Virus genome (UHGV): UHGV-1351772 | Direction: 5' to 3' (one strand) | DNA from: a virus | Length of the DNA stretch: 64,000 nt | Part shown: positions 3,673-55,899 of the stretch, piece by piece | Numbering within the stretch: position 1 is the first letter of the stretch | Layout of the letters: each line of letters starts with the position of its first letter | Notes under the pieces: model-generated | What the model was told of the DNA's origin: nothing | The model's input: the letters and a program-made list of their open reading frames with translations, nothing else | The model's database searches: none | Made by a program: the position numbers and the translations under genes

Positions 3673-5235
3673 ATGAATAACAAAATGATGTTGATAACCG
3701 CCTTAGCCACATTATACGCTGAAAGTCTTCTGACCGATCCTGAAAAGGACCACGACATCATAAGAAAAGTGCTGTTAGAGGCTAAGCTTCCTGATTACGC
3801 AGAAGAAGGTGACGAACGTGCCGCCCTCGTCGAAATCAAGGATATCATCACATCCATCATAGACGGCGGTATGCCTTACGACCACACAAACGTCATGAAA
3901 CGTTTGAAACTGGCCACTACGCAAATACGTCCTCTATACGATACGATTACCAAATTCCTGGAAGATGATATTCCAGAAGAACCAGAAGCACGCATCGAGC
4001 ATCTTAATCGCCAAGTAGCACAATACTACTTTCAGTTACGTCAAGCTATTCAAGGCGTACAACTGAAACAAAAATTGGGTCGTACGTTAGGCGCACTGAA
4101 CGGCACTGAAACGCGTGTTGATTTACAAACGGCGCTCAACGACCTTAAGGATACCTTATCCACGTTCAGTGAACGCTCTCATAATAAGATTCCTTCTCTG
4201 GTAGGGGAATTGATTACTGATAATAAAGCACCTTTCGTGCATGTATTCGACTCTATCAGTAAGAAAGCGGCAGGGAACGGGTTGCGTACGGGGTGGAAAG
4301 CAATTAACCAAATGCTCGGTTGTAACAAAGGGATCACCGAAGAACTCTGGCTGATGCCTGCTCTTCCCTTTAACTGTAAATCATTATTCAGTTTATTGCT
4401 CTCTATTAGCATTCCTGTATTCAACACTCCAGAAAAGGTGATGGCGAATGTTAAAGGTGACCTACAACCGGTTATTCTGGATTTAAGTTTAGAAAACGAA
4501 TTGGATGTTAACTTGGCTTACGCGTATCAAGCACTTTACGGACACTTTGAAGGTACAGCTCCGGTAATGGTTGCACCTGAAACGGCAACTGACGAAGAAA
4601 AAGCGCTACACAATGCACAAATGTCAGATTACCTCTGTAGTAAAATGCGGGCAAACGGTTGGGAGTATATTTTCCAAAAACACACAAACTCCGATTTTAA
4701 AATTCACTATTTGAATGATTTGATTTTAGATTTAAAACGTCGAGGTTATCATGTAGCTGGAATACGCGGAGACTATTTCGGTACTATCAGCAAAGCAGGA
4801 CACGGTAACGGCATTGCGGGTAGTGACATTAAAGAAATTTATCGTATCGCGCGAAACATCCAAGTGGTACGTAATCGTGGTTTCCTCTTAGCACCACACC
4901 AAATCTCACCTGAAGGCAAAAAATTAAAAGCACTCGACCCAGCAAGTTTCTGTAAGAGCTTACCTGGTCGTGGTCTTTACGACAACTGCTCTAGCTTAGA
5001 CAACGAAGCTGACGGTGAGATGTATTTTAACAAACGTGTCGTCAGCGGACACAGCTATTTAGAAGTACAACGCGGTAAACACCGTACCATTATTGATACC
5101 AAAGAAGCTTATCATTATACTGTAATACCTTTCCGTGATGTTGGCATTTTGCCATGGGATTGTGATAAAGAAGAAACTGTAACAGCCTCGTCGATTAACG
5201 TATTTACCGGCGGCATGGGTGACGAACTCTTTTGA
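3673..5235 (+). CDS. hypothetical protein
   Basis: 520-aa ORF divergent from 3659; followed by hairpin terminator at 5236..5262. Confidence 0.6.
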   Translation: MNNKMMLITALATLYAESLLTDPEKDHDIIRKVLLEAKLPDYAEEGDERAALVEIKDIITSIIDGGMPYDHTNVMKRLKLATTQIRPLYDTITKFLEDDIPEEPEARIEHLNRQVAQYYFQLRQAIQGVQLKQKLGRTLGALNGTETRVDLQTALNDLKDTLSTFSERSHNKIPSLVGELITDNKAPFVHVFDSISKKAAGNGLRTGWKAINQMLGCNKGITEELWLMPALPFNCKSLFSLLLSISIPVFNTPEKVMANVKGDLQPVILDLSLENELDVNLAYAYQALYGHFEGTAPVMVAPETATDEEKALHNAQMSDYLCSKMRANGWEYIFQKHTNSDFKIHYLNDLILDLKRRGYHVAGIRGDYFGTISKAGHGNGIAGSDIKEIYRIARNIQVVRNRGFLLAPHQISPEGKKLKALDPASFCKSLPGRGLYDNCSSLDNEADGEMYFNKRVVSGHSYLEVQRGKHRTIIDTKEAYHYTVIPFRDVGILPWDCDKEETVTASSINVFTGGMGDELF

Positions 5236-5262
5236 GTCTGGGGAGCTTCGGCTCCCCCTTAT
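5236..5262 (+). terminator. rho-independent terminator
   Basis: ggggagc-ttcg-gctcccc hairpin directly after stop of 3673..5235. Confidence 0.5.
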
Positions 5263-5378
5263 GACCCCTTATGCGTCTCGAAAAACAAAAAAAAACAGAA
5301 GGCTATTAATTATGAACGGGAAACAACTACTGAACTAAGTAGGGGGTGGTGACAACACCCCCTTTATTAGTTAGTAAC

Positions 5379-5540
5379 TTATCTCCTTACAGGTGGTTGG
5401 TGAACATTGTGGTTGTTAACCGTTTTCGGTGCCGCAACGAGGCCGAGACGAACATATTCGTCCATGCGTTGGTTAAACTGAATTTGTTTTTCACGATTTC
5501 GCATCGCGGTATTGGACATCTGTATTTGATATTCGTTCAT
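5379..5540 (-). CDS. small protein, paralog 1 of 3 (about 53 aa)
   Basis: Below ORF-track size cutoff; manual translation MNEYQIQMSNTAMRNREKQIQFNQRMDEYVRLGLVAAPK...; shares xFNxRxxExxxLGL core with 5695..5865; RBS-like aaagg upstream. Confidence 0.4.
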   Translation of the reverse strand: MNEYQIQMSNTAMRNREKQIQFNQRMDEYVRLGLVAAPKTVNNHNVHQPPVRR

Positions 5541-5600
5541 TTTTCATTACCTTTCGTAATGTTGTAAAAACGTCAACAACTTTATGTGTTGACACCGTAC

Positions 5601-5690
5601 AGCAGAGACTGTTCCGCCAGTCTCTGCTGCTTTAACTTCTCTTTCGAAAAGTTAAAGCTATGAAAAGGGGTGCTTCACCACCCCTTTATT
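5601..5690 (-). repeat. three-hairpin RNA module, copy 1
   Basis: Tandem stem-loops: cagcagagactg/cagtctctgctg, gctttaac...gttaaagc (loop ttctctttcgaaaa), ggggtg/cacccc + T-run. Confidence 0.55.
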
Positions 5691-5694
5691 TTAT

Positions 5695-5865
5695 TTAGTA
5701 GTTACTTCTCCTTTCGGTGAAGATTTGTACTCGAGGATTATTAGAAGGTTTAAGCCTTTTATTTAATCCTAGCTGTTGAACTTCTCTTAATCGTTCATTA
5801 AACCTCGCTTGTTCTGCATAGCTGTTTGAGATAGAAGTAAAGATACGTGTATTGTTGTTAGTCAT
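5695..5865 (-). CDS. small protein, paralog 2 of 3 (about 56 aa)
   Basis: Manual translation MTNNNTRIFTSISNSYAEQARFNERLREVQQLGLNKRL...; similar core to paralog 1. Confidence 0.4.
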   Translation of the reverse strand: MTNNNTRIFTSISNSYAEQARFNERLREVQQLGLNKRLKPSNNPRVQIFTERRSNY

Positions 5866-5922
5866 GTTAAAACCTCACACGAGTTGGGGATTAAGCTATT
5901 ACGCGGGTGTAATAGCAACAAG

Positions 5923-6005
5923 TAGGGACTGTACCGGCAGTCCCTACTGCTTTATCTTCTCTTTCGAAAAGATAAAGCGCCTATGGGGAGTGTTGGCGCA
6001 CTCCC
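5923..6005 (-). repeat. three-hairpin RNA module, copy 2
   Basis: Same architecture as copy 1; middle hairpin gctttatc...gataaagc has the identical loop with compensatory stem change (aac/gtt to atc/gat). Confidence 0.55.
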
Positions 6006-6015
6006 CTTTAGGTTG

Positions 6016-6168
6016 TTACCTCCTCTCAACTGCCAACTGGGTGTTTCTTGAATATGCAACTTTGGGCTGTGTTAACGTTGGTTGCGCTATTTCACTAACC
6101 CTTCGCTGAAACTCAAGTTGTTTTGTTGACAACTCGTTTAACCGTCGAAACAGCAGTTCATGTTTCAT
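6016..6168 (-). CDS. small protein, paralog 3 of 3 (about 50 aa)
   Basis: Manual translation MKHELLFRRLNELSTKQLEFQRRVSEIAQ...; weaker similarity to paralogs 1 and 2. Confidence 0.3.
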   Translation of the reverse strand: MKHELLFRRLNELSTKQLEFQRRVSEIAQPTLTQPKVAYSRNTQLAVERR

Positions 6169-6244
6169 GAACTCATCACCTATGTCGATTTTGCGAAAAT
6201 AAATAAAGTGTACCCCTAATCCTTTTCGGGATTAGGGGTTGCTT

Positions 6245-7060
6245 TTATTTAGTCGCTACGTATTGAACATGGCCACATTCCTTACATTCCACGTTGGCTT
6301 TCGGGATTGTCAGGCCGGTTAAAGGAACACGTATTTGGTACTGTGCTCCACATTCTTCACAAACAAAATCGTGTTCTGGATAAACACGACCTTCTAATTT
6401 CTCTTCTTTCCTTAGTGTGCCTGCTAAGAACAGCATCGCACCTAACGCTTCATTAATCTGCTGTTCCCATTCTCCGTCTAACGGGTAAGCGAACGCACGA
6501 GTCAACGTTTCCACCATCTCTGGAGTATTACTTACATAAACGTGTTTCAGTTCAAACTCAACACGCTGTAAGCCAAACAATACGCGTGCTGTTACAGTAA
6601 CATTATCCAACGTTTGTGCAAATACAACGGGATTATCGTCGCCGTACATCGCGAATAACGCAGCACGTTCGTATTCGATATCACTCCACTCGATTAGTTC
6701 TACAGATTTAATCTCTTCCGCAATCGTAGCATTACCGAACGTTTCATGTTCCAATAATCCGACGATAACTTCATTCAACGATTTCAATTGCTGTAAACGA
6801 ATCACAGGATCGGTGTTCACGATAAGCAAACGATGCATTCTGGATTTCAACCAATTAATCGTTCCTTCTACACCGCCCCCAAACGAGCAGATGCTTATCA
6901 CTTCAGGTTCGCGAAGGATAAGAGTGGATTTTCCTGCTGCCGTACTCAAGTAGAGTTTAAAAGACTTATCGCTGGACTCTGCAACGATGGCAATGTCTTC
7001 AGTTGGAACAAAGTTTTCATTGCTCAGTCCACGCGGAAAATAATCTTTAATGGTAATCAT
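6245..7060 (-). CDS. hypothetical protein with C-terminal CxxC...CxxC zinc-ribbon; possible P-loop-like segment
   Basis: 271 aa; CEECG...CKECG near C-terminus; STAAGKST segment resembles a deviant Walker A but is not canonical. Confidence 0.5.
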   Translation of the reverse strand: MITIKDYFPRGLSNENFVPTEDIAIVAESSDKSFKLYLSTAAGKSTLILREPEVISICSFGGGVEGTINWLKSRMHRLLIVNTDPVIRLQQLKSLNEVIVGLLEHETFGNATIAEEIKSVELIEWSDIEYERAALFAMYGDDNPVVFAQTLDNVTVTARVLFGLQRVEFELKHVYVSNTPEMVETLTRAFAYPLDGEWEQQINEALGAMLFLAGTLRKEEKLEGRVYPEHDFVCEECGAQYQIRVPLTGLTIPKANVECKECGHVQYVATK

Positions 7061-7113
7061 CTTTTATGCTCCAATTAATAAAAAATTAAGGGCACCCGAA
7101 GGTGCCTTATACA

Positions 7114-7257
7114 TTAACCACGACCAGTGCACTGTGCAACGGAGTTACCGTTGTCGATGCAAGTGTCGTAGCCTTTGTCGATGTCCAGATACAGGCAACC
7201 CAGAACAACAGCGATAACAACAGCGAAAATAGCTTTTTTGTGTTTTACAGAAATCAT
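7114..7257 (-). CDS. small putative lipoprotein (47 aa)
   Basis: Manual translation MISVKHKKAIFAVVIAVVLGCLYLDIDKGYDTCIDNGNSVAQCTGRG; hydrophobic signal-like segment ending in lipobox-like VLGC; followed by hairpin terminator 7089..7105. Confidence 0.45.
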   Translation of the reverse strand: MISVKHKKAIFAVVIAVVLGCLYLDIDKGYDTCIDNGNSVAQCTGRG

Positions 7258-7460
7258 GATATAACTCCTAATTAGGTATTCGATAAATGAGTATTACGTA
7301 AACTCTCACCTAGGTAATATATATCTGAAATCTTTTTGAATCCATATACCCTCTAGAACGCTCTAAAACGCATTCTGACGCAATTTTCTTTTTAAAGGGT
7401 AATTAGTCGTCTTAGCGGTTAAATGACTTCTGCGTGTCGTTTAGGAATAAATAAAAGGTA

Positions 7461-7494
7461 TTCCCGTTACCCATAGAGGTAACGGGAAGTTTTT
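7461..7494. terminator. rho-independent terminator
   Basis: ttcccgttacc-catagag-gtaacgggaa hairpin plus T-run just after stop of 7493..8299. Confidence 0.55.
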
Positions 7495-8299
7495 ACAGAC
7501 CTTGCATCTTATCCATTACAGCGATTTCAGGATCGTTAATGCCCGTCTTCGAAGAAATCATAAAGCGCTTATCGCTAATAGCTTCTACAGATTCGCGAAT
7601 AAACAATGACTTTTCTTCCGCAACAGGGAGAATAGAATCGTTATCCTGCGGACCCACAAGCTGACAACTGAATGGCACATAGCTGTTGAAAGTCACATAA
7701 GGACCTAACTGCAAGACCGGATACACTTCATTAAAGTTATTTGATGTACCGCTGTCTGTAGAAATAACAGAATAGCGCACCACCGCACGAACCGCTGTTG
7801 TGTATTCAGGATCGCGGGCTTCACCCACCACGGTAAAACGAAACGCATTGAAGTCGTAGTCTTCCGACTCACTAAAGTGTGAAGGGAGAATACGTTCAAT
7901 ATACTGAGGATAGGTTTCTTGTTGCCCTGGAATAACCGCTGCAGCTAATTTCTGAGCATAGAAGTAACAATAAGCAAAGCCGTATTGCGCTTCTAAAGCA
8001 CCAGACACCACGGCAGTTGTGATCGCGTGCAGGAACAACAAATGGCCTAACGTCCCTTTTTCTTCGATTGGTAATAAGCGACAATTCTGTACACCGTCTA
8101 CGGTATAAATAACAGAAATCGTTTTGTCAGCACTGGACGCCATGATGTAGTCCAACTGGCGTTGTTCGCCACCAGGAATAACATTAAGGCAACGTTCTAA
8201 CAACTTCGACGGTTTCGAAAAATTCTCTTCTTCGAACTTGTCGATTTGAATTAACGTTTGGCCAGACATTCTGAAAGTAAGTAGATTACTCATTAACAA
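7493..8299 (-). CDS. hypothetical protein
   Basis: 268-aa ORF. Confidence 0.55.
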   Translation of the reverse strand: MLMSNLLTFRMSGQTLIQIDKFEEENFSKPSKLLERCLNVIPGGEQRQLDYIMASSADKTISVIYTVDGVQNCRLLPIEEKGTLGHLLFLHAITTAVVSGALEAQYGFAYCYFYAQKLAAAVIPGQQETYPQYIERILPSHFSESEDYDFNAFRFTVVGEARDPEYTTAVRAVVRYSVISTDSGTSNNFNEVYPVLQLGPYVTFNSYVPFSCQLVGPQDNDSILPVAEEKSLFIRESVEAISDKRFMISSKTGINDPEIAVMDKMQGL

Positions 8300-53843: not shown

Positions 53844-55691
53844 TTAGAAAGTCGGACGCCAGTCAGTTGCAGCGAAGGACATACCGAAATCGCTACCAAA
53901 TGCGTTAGGACCGCTACCAGACAGCGCGAAGTTCTCATTACCCGTGTTAACAAACACAGAGTGAGTGAGGCTGTTCGCTGCGGTAACACCATTCACCTGG
54001 AAGTTGCAGTTTTCAGTAATGTATTCCACCAGTGCTTTACCAAACAGCGGATTGATCGCCAGGTCAGACGCTTCACCCGTTACCTGCGGCTGTTTGCTAC
54101 CGAACATGGACGCAGCCATTTTCAGCAGGTACAGACGCTGGTCACGCGCATTCAGATAGCGGTGAGAGTAGGACTGTGCACTGATGTAGTCGATCGCATC
54201 GCGTTGGTTATCACCCACTTTAGTCAGAGCGGAAACCAAGTCCATATCCTGGAAGCTGCGTTTCTGGCTGTTGCTGAAATACTGACCAGAGATGGTCGGG
54301 CAACCGGCAATAACAACGTGTTTGCACTCGAAGTTGGTGACATTGCCCAGCAGTGCTTTGAAGCGAGTGCTGAACTTAGTCGCGCCGTTGCTGGCCATGT
54401 TATCCAGGATATTGAACAGGGTGTACAGTGCGTTGGTGTTACCCATCCCGATTTCGCTCAGGAGAGTAGACAGGCCACCGATACCGTTACCTGCACGATG
54501 GTTCACCACCAGGGCCGCAGTCGGGTTAGCGAAGGTGTCCAGGCATTTCTCGATAACTTCACGGTTACCGTCGATTTTGCTCAGGTCAGGTTTTTCGCTG
54601 CCCCATTCTACATACTCCAGAACGCGGGAGAAGCGGCGATCGGTTTTGTTCAGCGACTGCATGAAACGTTCACGCCAGCCACCAATAGTGGCGATTTGTG
54701 CGAACGCGGCCAGTTCAATCAGCTGACGCTCGATAGGTGCCATTGCCCCAGAGGACTGAGAATCCATCAGGGAAACAACCACTTCGGCTTCCAGCTGACG
54801 CAGGTCCTGAGTACCGTTAGTCAGGGTTTGAGGTTTACCTTTATGGCGGAGGTTGATGTAACCAACACCTGCAACGCTCGGATAATTCTGGAGGCGTTCA
54901 GAAGAGAACAGCGTCGGGTTATTATCGTTGTTGCCAGTGCGAGTGTGGTCAACCACAACCATCAGGTCAGCACGTTGTGCAGAACCGTTAACGTCAGTTA
55001 CAGAACCTTCTTCAACTACGCTGACTTGCGCGGTGAAGCGATCAGAACGGGTCATTTTCAGGTAGCCCAGGTAGCCGGAATGACGACCGAAGATACCCAA
55101 TGCAATCTGGCCCATGAGCTGGTTAGCCCATTCTTCGTTCATGGTTTTACCCAGTTCCGGTACGCAGTTCATTACCATGAACTGTACGCTTGGCAGATTG
55201 TGCTGAGTTGCAATCTGGTTAGTGATGTTGTTCATCACACCTTCTTGACTGAACAGCTGCGCCAGGGTGTAGTAGTTTTCTTTACCGTTGATTTCGTAGA
55301 AACGGATGGACTGGCCATGTTCAAAGAACAGGATACCATAGAGCCATTCGTTATGGTTATCGCCGGACGGACCAGCCACGTATGCAGCAGAACCCATTTC
55401 AGAGTTGATGCCGTCAATAACACCCCAACGGAAGTTACGCAGGTATGTGTTCTTCTCCGCCATCTTCTCAATCAGGCTAGTGAACTGAGAAGCAGTGGAC
55501 ACGAAAGACATGTATCCGAAAGCTTTATCGAAAGTAGAGATGTTTTTAGACATCCCACCAAAAGCGTTGGCCGCATTGGTATTATCCACAGTAGCAGCTC
55601 CCGCGCCACCGAAAGACGGAATTGGATCTGCAGCGGAACCAGCAGCACCAGTCACAACGTCGTTTTGATTGTCAATAAACTCTTTAGCCAT
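53844..55691 (-). CDS. abundant 615-aa protein; candidate phage nuclear-shell protein (chimallin), alternatively a virion structural protein
   Basis: Strong codon bias; AAGGA RBS; two tandem consensus promoter motifs upstream; own terminator; size and extended N/C tails are compatible with chimallin, but no direct sequence verification is possible here. Confidence 0.4.
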   Translation of the reverse strand: MAKEFIDNQNDVVTGAAGSAADPIPSFGGAGAATVDNTNAANAFGGMSKNISTFDKAFGYMSFVSTASQFTSLIEKMAEKNTYLRNFRWGVIDGINSEMGSAAYVAGPSGDNHNEWLYGILFFEHGQSIRFYEINGKENYYTLAQLFSQEGVMNNITNQIATQHNLPSVQFMVMNCVPELGKTMNEEWANQLMGQIALGIFGRHSGYLGYLKMTRSDRFTAQVSVVEEGSVTDVNGSAQRADLMVVVDHTRTGNNDNNPTLFSSERLQNYPSVAGVGYINLRHKGKPQTLTNGTQDLRQLEAEVVVSLMDSQSSGAMAPIERQLIELAAFAQIATIGGWRERFMQSLNKTDRRFSRVLEYVEWGSEKPDLSKIDGNREVIEKCLDTFANPTAALVVNHRAGNGIGGLSTLLSEIGMGNTNALYTLFNILDNMASNGATKFSTRFKALLGNVTNFECKHVVIAGCPTISGQYFSNSQKRSFQDMDLVSALTKVGDNQRDAIDYISAQSYSHRYLNARDQRLYLLKMAASMFGSKQPQVTGEASDLAINPLFGKALVEYITENCNFQVNGVTAANSLTHSVFVNTGNENFALSGSGPNAFGSDFGMSFAATDWRPTF

Positions 55692-55740
55692 TTTACTTAA
55701 TCCTTATAAGGTTTAATACAATTGTAGTGTTGGTTCACGT

Positions 55741-55754
55741 AGATAATATCTAGC
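55741..55754. promoter_or_regulatory. palindromic promoter-like motif AGATAATATCTAGC with downstream GATATTTT
   Basis: First of two tandem copies in the divergent region between 55691 and 55900. Confidence 0.55.
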
Positions 55755-55820
55755 TAAGATATTTTAGAATACACGTAAAACACACATAGCTTAAAATGAT
55801 TAACTACCGAACCATCACAT

Positions 55821-55834
55821 AGATAATATCTTTC
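55821..55834. promoter_or_regulatory. palindromic promoter-like motif AGATAATATCTTTC with downstream GATATTTT
   Basis: Second tandem copy, 80 nt from the first. Confidence 0.55.
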
Positions 55835-55899
55835 TCAGATATTTTTCAATGTGAGTGAGACTGTGACCGTTTCCTATGTGTAACCCCAAGGAGTAAGTC

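What the first reader, a model, noticed from the sequence alone, without database searches (positions are those of the whole stretch)
7114..7257. Unannotated small lipoprotein-like gene
A 47-codon minus-strand ORF encodes a hydrophobic N-terminal segment ending in a lipobox-like VLGC followed by a short Cys-containing polar domain (MISVKHKKAIFAVVIAVVLGC...). It has its own terminator. Small phage lipoproteins often act in lysis (spanin-like) or superinfection exclusion.
Basis: inference. Interest (0 to 1): 0.4.

Follow-up and report, generated by a model that had tools for sequence, protein, structure and literature searches.

The report
Early jumbo-phage envelope microprotein gene
The 47-codon ORF is a real, strongly conserved gene of SPN3US-like jumbo phages, probably made early and in quantity, that tethers a tiny disulfide-stapled peptide to the periplasmic side of a membrane; it belongs to a catalogued family of unknown function, is not a lysis gene, and its lipoprotein signal is not conserved among relatives.

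Summary
The ORF at 7114-7257 (-) is confirmed: ATG, AGGAG 7 nt upstream, its own hairpin+T terminator. It is a real gene. dN/dS is 0.04-0.31, and the protein is 100% identical in relatives whose flanking proteins are only 69-78% identical.

It is the orthologue of Salmonella phage SPN3US gp66 (PHROG 8574, E 3e-23, function unknown), syntenic in all SPN3US-like jumbo phages examined. So it is annotated in relatives, as "hypothetical".

New here:
- It lies 56 nt downstream of a perfect phiKZ-type early (virion-RNA-polymerase) promoter motif, forming a ~225-nt monocistronic unit.
- Its codon adaptation (Fop 0.93) exceeds that of every long ORF in the window, the major capsid gene included.

Family invariants are an N-terminal K/R cluster, a 13-22-residue (mostly 15-20) hydrophobic segment, and a C-terminal Y-x-x-C-x2-N-G-N-S-x3-C-T-G-R-G hairpin.

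VLGC passes the permissive PROSITE lipobox and fails the strict one. The Cys is present in only 16 of 33 orthologues and was gained or lost at least 6 times.

Lysis roles are very unlikely: no partner gene, early promoter, and the SPN3US endolysin is 110 kb away.

Best reading: an abundant early membrane-tethered periplasmic microprotein acting on the envelope (exclusion or host-envelope modulation). The function is untested.

The parts
7114..7257 (-). Coding sequence, 47 codons plus TAA. Orthologue of SPN3US gp66 / PHROG 8574.
   Evidence: - ORF listing and sequence.
- phrog_8574 E 3.4e-23, full length 1-47 of 47.
- dN/dS 0.04-0.31.
- Fop 0.93, above all 48 long ORFs of the window.
7195..7233 (-). 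Codons 9-21: hydrophobic h-region (AIFAVVIAVV) ending in the lipobox-like L-G-C. The hydrophobic run continues to L24 (7186).
   Evidence: - Uncharged run covers residues 9-24.
- PROSITE-type lipobox matched at C21; strict lipobox not matched.
- Maximum KD19 is 2.30.
- AF2 models one continuous helix, residues 4-35.
7117..7170 (-). Codons 30-47: the conserved C-terminal module Y-D-T-C33-IDNGNSVAQ-C43-TGRG. Predicted helix-turn-helix hairpin with a probable C33-C43 disulfide, displayed in the periplasm.
   Evidence: - Invariant in 33 sequences: C33, G37, S39, C43, T44, G45, R46. Near-invariant: Y30, N36, G47.
- AF2 places a turn at 36-39 and a helix at 40-44; mean pLDDT 85.8.
- The disulfide and the periplasmic location are inferred.
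7265..7269 (-). Shine-Dalgarno AGGAG, 7 nt upstream of the ATG.
   Evidence: Read from the sequence. An AGGAG/AAGGA-type motif sits at the same place in orthologous loci.
7307..7330 (-). phiKZ-type early (virion RNA polymerase) promoter motif TTTCAGATATATATTACCTAGGTG. The TSS is inferred near 7308 +/- 3.
   Evidence: - Unique perfect copy in the window; 0 expected by chance.
- About 95% identical copies occur in SPN3US-like phages.
- It matches the published early-promoter consensus of phiKZ (TATATTAC) and of 201phi2-1 (PMC7058600; PMC7598289).
- SPN3US has 11 copies against 0.7 expected, all 40-150 nt upstream of + strand genes, gp66 included.
- Invariant across the locus alignment.
7343..7375 (-). 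Three tandem ~11-nt units (GCGTCAGAAT / GCGTTTTAGA / GCGTTCTAGAGGG) just upstream of the promoter. Conserved at this locus; role unknown (regulator site or upstream promoter element?).
   Evidence: - The GCGTT-N-TAGAGGGT block is invariant among 5 diverged loci.
- Similar clusters occur at SPN3US 65382, 137572 and 240065.
7081..7106 (-). Intrinsic terminator of the small gene: 6-bp GC stem, TTCG loop, T-run.
   Evidence: - Terminator scan.
- Identical hairpin in L008 and L010-L013.
- A different-sequence hairpin at the same place in phage Huxley.
7461..7488 (-). Terminator hairpin of the upstream gene (gp65 homologue, 7493-8299). It isolates the small gene as its own transcription unit.
   Evidence: - Terminator scan: 12-bp stem.
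- The hairpin is kept through compensatory changes in SPN3US, ChrisDB and Caitlin.

Best explanation
**What it is.** The ORF is the orthologue of SPN3US gp66 (PHROG 8574). This is a 45-51-residue envelope microprotein found in SPN3US-like (Seoulvirus/Machinavirus-type) jumbo phages of Enterobacterales.

**Expression.** In this phage it is a self-contained ~225-nt transcription unit:
- A consensus phiKZ-type early promoter, read by the injected virion RNA polymerase.
- A ~50-nt leader and a strong SD.
- 47 codons with the best codon adaptation in the window.
- Its own terminator.

It is therefore probably made in large amounts in the first minutes of infection.

**Topology.** The K/R-rich N-terminus stays in the cytoplasm. 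The 16-residue hydrophobic segment inserts in the inner membrane. The invariant C-terminal ~18 residues (Y-x-x-C-x2-NGNS-x3-C-TGRG) are displayed in the periplasm as a helix-turn-helix hairpin stapled by a Cys33-Cys43 disulfide.

**Anchor type.** In this member the G20-C21 junction may additionally allow Lgt/LspA processing to a 27-residue lipopeptide. Half of the orthologues lack that Cys. What is conserved is tethering of the hairpin at the periplasmic face, not lipidation.

**Proposed action.** The tethered hairpin binds a conserved envelope target soon after infection. That target could be the entry apparatus of a second phage (superinfection exclusion, working like T4 Imm/Sp or T5 Llp). 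It could instead be a host inner-membrane or periplasmic protein (working like the 47-aa MgrB on PhoQ). It is not part of the lysis machinery.

**Shown versus inferred.**
- Shown: gene reality, family membership, synteny, promoter-motif class, codon bias, conservation pattern.
- Inferred: early and abundant expression, topology, the disulfide.
- Speculative: the target and the phenotype.
For: **Real gene and family**
- phrog_8574 E 3.4e-23.
- 61 phage records carry a tblastn hit, all from Salmonella, Erwinia, Escherichia or Proteus jumbo phages.
- 32 protein clusters were found with a family profile.
- Synteny is conserved between the virion-protein block gp62-65 and the divergent helicase gp73.
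- dN/dS 0.04-0.31.
- The protein is 100% conserved where neighbouring proteins are 69-78% identical.

**Early and abundant**
- A perfect early-promoter motif ends 56 nt upstream of the ATG.
- The motif class is described as early, vRNAP-dependent, in phiKZ-like phages (PMC7058600; PMC7598289).
- SPN3US has 11 copies against 0.7 expected, all correctly placed upstream of genes.
- An early-type motif lies 56-900 nt upstream of the orthologue in 19 of the 22 loci scanned (21 related loci plus the window).
- Fop is 0.93, against a mean of 0.54 (SD 0.09) for the window's long ORFs and 0.86 for the major capsid gene. Only 1% of 47-codon chunks reach it.
- Orthologues have Fop 0.62-0.91; in 10 of the 11 loci this exceeds every long ORF of the locus (L009 only ties).

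**Topology and hairpin**
- 2-4 K/R residues precede a 13-22-residue (mostly 15-20) uncharged run in all members.
- Maximum KD19 is 1.8-2.9.
- AF2 on 33 sequences gives pLDDT 85.8, with helix 4-35, turn 36-39 and helix 40-44.
- The two Cys and TGR are invariant, and the final Gly is nearly so. A conserved Cys pair makes sense only in the oxidising periplasm (established DsbA biology; inference).

**Not lysis**
- See the first-reader verdict.
Against: - There is no experimental or omics evidence for expression timing, localisation or phenotype. The SPN3US proteomics paper could not be read.
- Early-promoter assignment rests on motif similarity, not on a mapped TSS in this clade.
- The hydrophobic run in this member is only 16 residues and ends in G-C. 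Cleavage by signal peptidase II (or I) is therefore a live alternative to a stable signal anchor.
- No sequence or fold similarity was found to any characterised exclusion protein or to MgrB:
  - Pfam and NCBIfam gave nothing at E<=0.1.
  - PDB sequence search gave 0 hits.
  - Foldseek gave E>4.
- The functional analogy is therefore architectural only.
- Reviews of nucleus-forming jumbo phages describe productive co-infection, and the two read here name no exclusion factor.
Confidence: 0.55

Rival explanations
1. It is a bona fide bacterial-type lipoprotein in this phage. Lgt and LspA process it at L-G-|-C21. The 27-residue triacylated peptide is sent by Lol to the outer membrane (Leu at +2, no Asp). 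There it masks a receptor or entry component, as T5 Llp or the Cor proteins do.
For: - Cys21 passes the PROSITE PS51257-type pattern, with 3 Lys in the n-region and an 11-residue h-region.
- In the family, Cys is concentrated at exactly this column: 16 of 33 sequences, against 1 of 979 residues elsewhere before C33.
- When Cys is present, the -1 residue is A or G in 15 of 16 members, against 7 of 17 when it is absent (Fisher p = 0.0024, not corrected for phylogeny).
- The Cys arose or was lost at least 6 times on a rough tree.
- UniProt's rule-based annotation calls the Kwan and Wellington orthologues 'Lipoprotein'.
Against: - The strict lipobox [LVI][ASTVI][GAS]C is met by none of the 38 sequences. 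All have a non-canonical -2 and/or -3 residue; in this one Leu is at -2.
- Residues +2 to +4 (LYL) are hydrophobic and are modelled as part of one continuous helix.
- Seventeen of 33 orthologues, with the same conserved tail, have V/S/A/T/W/I/L instead of Cys. They must work without lipidation.
- There is no similarity to the Llp, Cor or Bor families.
Confidence: 0.25
2. The N-terminal segment is a cleavable Sec signal removed by signal peptidase I (or II). The ~27-residue disulfide-looped peptide is released as a soluble periplasmic effector.
For: - Position -1 is mostly small (A/G/S/T in 28 of 33), and -3 is small or aliphatic (AFA, ALA and AAA are common). This resembles an AxA site at the same column in members lacking Cys.
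- The putative signal would be 20 residues long, which is typical.
Against: - There is no polar c-region or helix breaker before the site.
- The hydrophobic run continues 3-6 residues beyond it in all members.
- AF2 models one uninterrupted helix 4-35.
- Some members have I, V or L at -1.
Confidence: 0.08
3. It is a lysis-cassette component: an o-spanin, a unimolecular spanin, a holin or antiholin, or a single-gene lysis protein.
For: - It is a small membrane protein with a lipobox-like Cys.
- There is a weak PHROG hit to an Rz-like spanin family (phrog_4297, E 0.042), covering only the TM segment.
Against: - No adjacent, overlapping or embedded gene carries an N-terminal TMD. The flanking 268-aa and 271-aa proteins have none, and this is the only TM ORF in 64 kb.
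- There is no C-terminal TMD, which rules out a u-spanin.
- The mature part would be 26-27 residues, shorter than the 40-residue mature lambda Rz1 (established knowledge).
- It has an early-type promoter.
- In SPN3US the endolysin gp198 is at 175 kb and gp66 at 65 kb. A TMD protein (gp204) plus a canonical LLTGC lipoprotein (gp205) lie 4 kb beyond the endolysin.
Confidence: 0.04
4. It acts on membranes inside the infected cell rather than on the periplasm. Examples are insertion into the early-phage-infection (EPI) vesicle of nucleus-forming phages, or host shut-off by perturbing the inner membrane.
For: - Expression signals indicate early and abundant synthesis.
- Nucleus-forming jumbo phages (Chimalliviridae), the group to which the literature relates SPN3US, enclose the injected genome in a lipid vesicle (PMC10541120 abstract; PMC12908238).
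Against: - The family is restricted to the SPN3US-like clade. No hits were found in Pseudomonas phiKZ-like phages, so it cannot be a core EPI-vesicle factor.
- The invariant part is the extracytoplasmic hairpin, not the TM segment.
Confidence: 0.06

Closest known systems
SPN3US gp66 (SPN3US_0066, AEP83899.1) / PHROG phrog_8574, hypothetical protein of SPN3US-like jumbo phages
   Same: - Full-length HMM match, E 3.4e-23.
- Same length (47 aa).
- Same genome position between the gp65 homologue and the helicase.
- Same early-promoter motif 56-59 nt upstream.
- Identical NGNS...CTGRG C-terminus.
   Different: - 53% identity.
- SPN3US has AFAV where this phage has VLGC, so it has no lipobox Cys.
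- SPN3US gp66 is translationally coupled (TAATG) to gp67 (phrog_14868). That gene is absent here and is replaced by a terminator.
E. coli MgrB (47-aa inner-membrane regulator of PhoQ); sequence and properties recalled from the literature, not retrieved here
   Same: - Same size.
- Same architecture: a short positively charged N-terminus, one TM helix containing a lipobox-like ...LAC, and a short periplasmic tail whose two Cys (about 10 residues apart) are needed for activity.
- It acts by binding a membrane protein in the periplasm/membrane.
   Different: No detectable sequence relationship: no Pfam hit at E<=1. It is host-encoded, not phage-encoded. The analogy is one of working principle only.
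Phage T5 Llp and Cor-type lipoproteins; T4 Imm and Sp (superinfection exclusion proteins)
   Same: They are small, made early, and exported or anchored in the envelope. They act from the periplasmic side against incoming phage.
   Different: - No sequence or profile similarity.
- Those proteins are 60-100 residues with folded domains. Here the exposed part is ~20 residues.
- Llp and Cor have conserved canonical lipoboxes. Here the Cys is facultative.
Lambda Rz1-type o-spanins
   Same: Small phage proteins with an N-terminal lipoprotein-like signal and periplasmic Cys residues.
   Different: - No i-spanin partner.
- Not in a lysis cassette.
- Early rather than late promoter.
- Not proline-rich.
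- Only a TM-segment-level hit to a spanin PHROG, E 0.042.

Membership tests
PHROG 8574 / SPN3US gp66 family | Full-length profile match | tested here: met
   E 3.4e-23, residues 1-47 on profile positions 1-47 of 47. A family-profile search recovers it with 31 other clusters.
PHROG 8574 / SPN3US gp66 family | Invariant C-terminal C-x9-C-T-G-R-G/S module preceded by one hydrophobic segment | tested here: met
   C33, G37, S39, C43, T44, G45 and R46 are invariant in 33 sequences.
PHROG 8574 / SPN3US gp66 family | Conserved genomic position (after the gp62-65 virion-protein block, before the divergent DnaB-like helicase and the major capsid gene) | tested here: met
Bacterial lipoprotein (signal peptidase II substrate) | Positively charged n-region, then a 7-22-residue h-region, with Cys at position 15-35 | tested here: met
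   K5, K7, K8; A9-L19; C21.
Bacterial lipoprotein (signal peptidase II substrate) | Lipobox: permissive PROSITE PS51257-type pattern | tested here: met
   The regex matches at C21.
Bacterial lipoprotein (signal peptidase II substrate) | Lipobox: strict consensus [LVI][ASTVI][GAS]C | tested here: not met
   V-L-G-C has Leu at -2. None of the 38 family sequences matches the strict pattern.
Bacterial lipoprotein (signal peptidase II substrate) | Conservation of the lipidated Cys among orthologues | tested here: not met
   Cys is present in 16 of 33 sequences (18 of 38 in the larger set). At least 6 state changes occurred.
Bacterial lipoprotein (signal peptidase II substrate) | Dedicated predictor call (LipoP / SignalP 6 SPII) and biochemical lipidation / globomycin sensitivity | not testable with these tools
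   No such predictor or experiment was available.
Two-component spanin (o-spanin) | Adjacent, overlapping or embedding i-spanin gene encoding an N-terminal TMD protein | tested here: not met
   Flanking ORFs 7493-8299 and 6245-7060 have no TMD. There is no other SD-preceded TM ORF in the 64-kb window.
Two-component spanin (o-spanin) | Location in a lysis cassette with the endolysin/holin, and late expression | tested here: not met
   - An early-type promoter lies upstream.
- In SPN3US the orthologue is 110 kb from endolysin gp198.
Unimolecular spanin (T1 gp11 type) | N-terminal lipobox plus a C-terminal transmembrane domain | tested here: not met
   The C-terminal 23 residues are polar (DIDKGYDTCIDNGNSVAQCTGRG).
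Known exclusion / small-regulator families (Llp, Cor, Bor, Imm, Sp, MgrB, entericidin) | Profile similarity to the family model | tested here: not met
   - Pfam gave only sub-threshold noise (best E 0.16).
- NCBIfam gave 0 families for this protein.
- PDB sequence search gave 0 hits.
- Foldseek PDB gave E>4.
phiKZ-type early (virion RNAP) promoter | AT-rich conserved core (TATATTAC-type) with flanking TTTRA...GTG, intergenic, co-oriented with and close to a downstream gene, and over-represented | tested here: met
   - Exact TTTCAGATATATATTACCTAGGTG; 0 expected.
- Compared with published consensus sequences.
- SPN3US has 11 copies against 0.7 expected, all upstream of + strand genes.
phiKZ-type early (virion RNAP) promoter | Mapped early transcription start / vRNAP dependence | not testable with these tools
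   No transcriptome for this clade was accessible.

The most novel reading that the evidence does not exclude
The gp66 family could be the first envelope-acting early effector of nucleus-forming jumbo phages. It would be an abundant ~20-residue disulfide-stapled periplasmic hairpin with an invariant free C-terminus (CTGRG-COOH). Its action would be to block re-infection or disarm a conserved enterobacterial envelope protein. Its membrane anchor has repeatedly switched between a transmembrane helix and an N-terminal lipid during evolution.
Probability: 0.2. Interest if true: 0.6.

Novelty: new member of a known kind. Interest (0 to 1): 0.35.

Why it matters
- **An obvious knockout and expression target.** Very little is known about what SPN3US-like jumbo phages do to the cell envelope in the first minutes of infection. 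The two reviews I searched name no exclusion factor for nucleus-forming phages. This gene is tiny, single-copy and better conserved than its neighbours. It has the strongest expression signals in the region.
- **A natural series for anchor-type comparison.** The recurrent gain and loss of the lipobox Cys at a single column gives matched variants. These could test whether a transmembrane and a lipid anchor are interchangeable for a periplasmic effector.
- **Otherwise ordinary.** It remains a member of a catalogued family of hypothetical proteins.

Tried and rejected
- **Single-sequence homology searches.** The word-indexed search found only one 98%-identical cluster. The exhaustive HMMER scan found 7. 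A family profile was needed.
- **Family and structure libraries.** None gave a significant match:
  - Pfam and NCBIfam.
  - PDB sequence search.
  - Foldseek PDB. Its top hits were thionin and crambin-like mini-proteins at E>4, which I judged not meaningful.
- **Literature.**
  - 'SPN3US gp66' returned nothing relevant.
  - 'SPN3US spanin' returned nothing useful.
  - The 2026 jumbo-phage review has no mention of superinfection, lipoprotein, spanin or holin.
  - The phiKZ transcription paper (PMC4178840) and the SPN3US infection proteomics paper (PMC6384053) are not held.
- **Non-coding alternative.** I considered that the region might be a small RNA rather than a gene. I rejected this on dN/dS and the third-position substitution pattern. 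Rfam gave nothing above threshold nearby, and the window has no tRNAs.
- **Sigma-70 promoter.** None was found in 6800-7700.
- **Chimallin control.** I considered using the 615-aa high-Fop ORF (53844-55691) as the chimallin gene, to provide a positive control for 'early promoter'. PHROG gives no function for it. The literature numbers the SPN3US chimallin differently. The point is left unverified.
- **PHROG annotation of SPN3US gp204/gp205 as spanins.** The families have no assigned function. The spanin assignment is by architecture only.

Full report
**1. The observation**

It lies at 7114-7257 on the minus strand and has 47 codons: MISVKHKKAIFAVVIAVVLGCLYLDIDKGYDTCIDNGNSVAQCTGRG.
- AGGAG lies 7 nt upstream of the ATG.
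- A GC hairpin with a TTCG loop and a T-run follows at 7106-7081.
- The upstream gene ends with its own 12-bp terminator hairpin at 7488-7461. The ORF therefore sits in a 235-nt intergenic island.
- It is the only SD-preceded ORF of 30-200 aa in the whole 64-kb window with a strong hydrophobic segment.
- The permissive lipobox regex hits 10 of 2285 start/stop combinations. This is the only one with a credible signal.

**2. It is a real gene under strong constraint**

The window belongs to an uncultivated SPN3US-like jumbo phage.
- The region is ~98% identical to IMG/VR UViG 3300029126_000001, a 225-kb contig.
- Gene order matches SPN3US gp62-gp75: virion proteins, the small gene, a divergent DnaB-like helicase, then the phiKZ-type major capsid protein.

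The ORF is the orthologue of SPN3US gp66.
- The PHROG match is full length: phrog_8574, E 3.4e-23, function unknown.
- tblastn finds it in 61 phage records, all Salmonella, Erwinia, Escherichia or Proteus jumbo phages. Most annotate it as a hypothetical protein.
- A single-sequence scan of 1.8 billion cluster representatives gave only 7 hits. A family profile gave 32 clusters.

Evidence for purifying selection:
- Nei-Gojobori dN/dS over nine orthologous DNAs is 0.04-0.31. Close pairs show 5 synonymous to 1 non-synonymous, 11:2 and 17:6 changes.
- In relatives L010 and L012 the flanking proteins are 69-78% identical and a virion protein is 90% identical. The small protein is 100% identical, with 5 differences in 144 nt, all at third positions.

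**3. Expression signals**

The motif TTTCAGATATATATTACCTAGGTG lies at 7330-7307, ending 56 nt upstream of the ATG.
- It is unique in the window at up to 3 mismatches, with none expected by chance.
- It was the only part of the region that megablast matched to other phages, at 91-97% identity in most listed intergenic copies across SPN3US-like genomes.
- It matches the early-promoter consensus reported for phiKZ (TATATTAC) and 201phi2-1 (…WTTTRARR-BTATATTACDWHDGTG) (PMC7058600).
- Such AT-rich motifs, centred near -10, are the early promoters read by the virion RNA polymerase in jumbo phages encoding RNAPs (PMC7598289).
- A slightly relaxed pattern occurs 11 times in the complete SPN3US genome, against 0.7 expected. 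Every copy is on the coding strand, 40-150 nt upstream of a gene; gp66 is one of them.
- In 19 of the 22 loci scanned (21 related loci plus the window) the motif lies 56-900 nt upstream of the small gene, with 0-3 small genes between.

In this phage lineage the gene is monocistronic. In SPN3US and most others it is translationally coupled (TAATG) to a 60-aa gene (phrog_14868) that is absent here.

Codon usage points to high expression.
- 93% of codons are E. coli-type optimal codons. The optimal-codon list was recalled from the literature.
- The 48 long ORFs of the window average 0.54 (SD 0.09), and the major capsid gene scores 0.86.
- Only 1% of 47-codon chunks reach 0.93.
- Orthologues score 0.62-0.91; in 10 of the 11 loci this exceeds every long ORF of the locus (L009 only ties).

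Early, abundant synthesis is thus a well-supported inference, but it has not been measured.

**4. Anatomy of the protein family**

Thirty-three to 38 distinct sequences share the following:
- 2-4 Lys/Arg in the first 8-10 residues.
- One uncharged run of 13-22 residues (mostly 15-20), with maximum Kyte-Doolittle 19-residue average of 1.8-2.9.
- A semi-conserved x-Y/S-I/L-T-V/L-N-N linker.
- An essentially invariant C-terminus D-Y-N/D-x-C-x-x-N-G-N-S-x-x-x-C-T-G-R-G.

AlphaFold2 with this alignment gives mean pLDDT 85.8. It models a continuous helix over residues 4-35, a turn at N36-S39, and a short helix over 40-44. This places C33 and C43 on the two arms of a hairpin.

A conserved Cys pair and an invariant free C-terminus argue for display in the oxidising periplasm with N-in/C-out topology. 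That is inference.

**5. Lipoprotein or signal anchor?**

For lipidation in this member:
- The n-region, h-region, Cys position and the permissive PROSITE pattern are all satisfied.
- In the family, Cys occurs at this column in 16 of 33 sequences, but in only 1 of 979 other N-terminal residues.
- The -1 residue is A or G in 15 of 16 Cys members, against 7 of 17 others (p = 0.0024, uncorrected for phylogeny).
- UniProt auto-labels two orthologues 'Lipoprotein'.

Against:
- The strict lipobox fails in every member. All have a non-canonical -2 and/or -3 residue; in this one Leu is at -2.
- The residues after the Cys are hydrophobic and helical.
- Half of the orthologues carry V/S/A/T/W/I/L instead, SPN3US itself among them.
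- The state changed at least 6 times on a rough tree.

My reading is that the conserved function needs the hairpin tethered at the periplasmic face. Some lineages, possibly this one, may have swapped the transmembrane tether for a lipid. I put lipidation of this member at roughly 0.35-0.4.

**6. Not lysis**

- There is no partner gene with an N-terminal TMD, and no C-terminal TMD.
- The promoter is of the early type.
- The PHROG spanin hit (E 0.042) covers only the TM segment.
- In SPN3US the endolysin gp198 is at 175 kb, 110 kb from gp66.
- About 4 kb beyond that endolysin lies an adjacent pair that looks like a conventional two-component spanin. gp204 has an N-terminal TMD and gp205 has a canonical LLTGC lipobox. 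This is by architecture only, since PHROG gives no function.

**7. Mechanism proposed**

The protein is an abundant early microprotein whose periplasmic, disulfide-stapled hairpin binds a conserved envelope target. Two versions are about equally plausible:
- It blocks entry of a second phage, working like T4 Imm/Sp or T5 Llp.
- It binds and modulates a host inner-membrane or periplasmic protein. This would resemble the equally sized MgrB, which has a TM helix, a lipobox-like Cys and a periplasmic Cys pair, and acts on PhoQ.

Both are analogies of architecture. No sequence, profile or fold relationship to any characterised protein was detected. The two reviews of nucleus-forming phages that I searched name no exclusion factor.

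**8. Verdict**

It is partly wrong: the gene is annotated in relatives, it is not spanin-like, and lipidation is not conserved.
- It is a new member of a catalogued but uncharacterised family.
- Interest is moderate. The expression signals, the extreme conservation and the anchor switching make it a good, cheap experimental target, but nothing here overturns expectations.

Noticed in passing
window 5230-6260 (- strand): ORFs 6016-6168, 5695-5865, 5379-5540; repeat copies 5601-5658 and 5921-5978: - Three tandem small ORFs (50, 56 and 53 aa), each followed by a GC hairpin and a T-run. They align weakly with one another and with SPN3US gp71/gp72 through a shared KQxQFNQRV-type core.
- Between them a 58-nt element occurs twice at 86% identity. 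It folds on paper into two hairpins whose stems differ between the copies by compensatory changes.
- Rfam finds nothing above threshold.
- It may be a structured RNA or an operator. Function unknown.
   Followed up: partly
window 7343-7375 (- strand); SPN3US 65293-65395, 137545-137585, 240040-240075: - Three tandem ~11-nt units (GCGTYnnAGAG, ending in TAGAGGGT) sit just upstream of the early promoter of the small gene.
- They are invariant across otherwise diverged loci.
- Similar clusters occur in two other SPN3US intergenic regions, one at the genome end.
- Possibly a binding-site array for a regulator.
   Followed up: partly
window 53844-55691 (- strand), with motifs at 55736-55759 and 55816-55839: - A 615-aa ORF with high codon adaptation (Fop 0.77).
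- It is preceded by two early-promoter-like motifs.
- It is homologous to SPN3US gp22 (phrog_8316, no function), which also has an early motif upstream.
- It is a candidate abundant early protein. The nuclear-shell protein was considered, but the literature numbers the SPN3US chimallin differently.
   Followed up: partly
protein P0007 (381 aa, Logan metagenome contig of 1.9 kb): - The only non-phage-like hit of the exhaustive search (E 9e-4, 4 stretches).
- It has an N-terminal multi-TM region and four tandem repeats of A-Y-N/D-x-C-I-G-N-G-N/A-S-x-x-Q-C. This is nearly the phage hairpin motif (DYNKCIDNGNSVAQC).
- The hairpin may be a more widespread extracytoplasmic mini-module.
- Pfam gives only a sub-threshold thionin hit.
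   Followed up: partly
SPN3US 180017-180976 (L031 30017-30976), gp204/gp205: Adjacent genes encode a protein with an N-terminal TMD (gp204) and a 159-aa protein with a canonical lipobox MKLFLAAILVLLLTGC (gp205). They lie about 4 kb beyond the endolysin gp198. Both are annotated hypothetical and both PHROGs lack a function. By architecture they look like an unannotated two-component spanin.
   Followed up: partly
window 6245-7060 (- strand): The 271-aa protein immediately downstream has a C-terminal CxxC...CxxC zinc-ribbon-like end, with only sub-threshold Pfam Zn-ribbon hits. It has only distant relatives (22-27% identity) in phiEaH2, Stratton and Asesino. It diverges much faster than the small gene, at 69% identity in L010 and L012.
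   Followed up: no
loci L008, L009, L025-L027 (metagenome contigs): Several independent assemblies break within ~50-650 nt upstream of the small gene or of its operon. This is consistent with the multi-copy early-promoter sequence acting as an assembly-breaking repeat.
   Followed up: no
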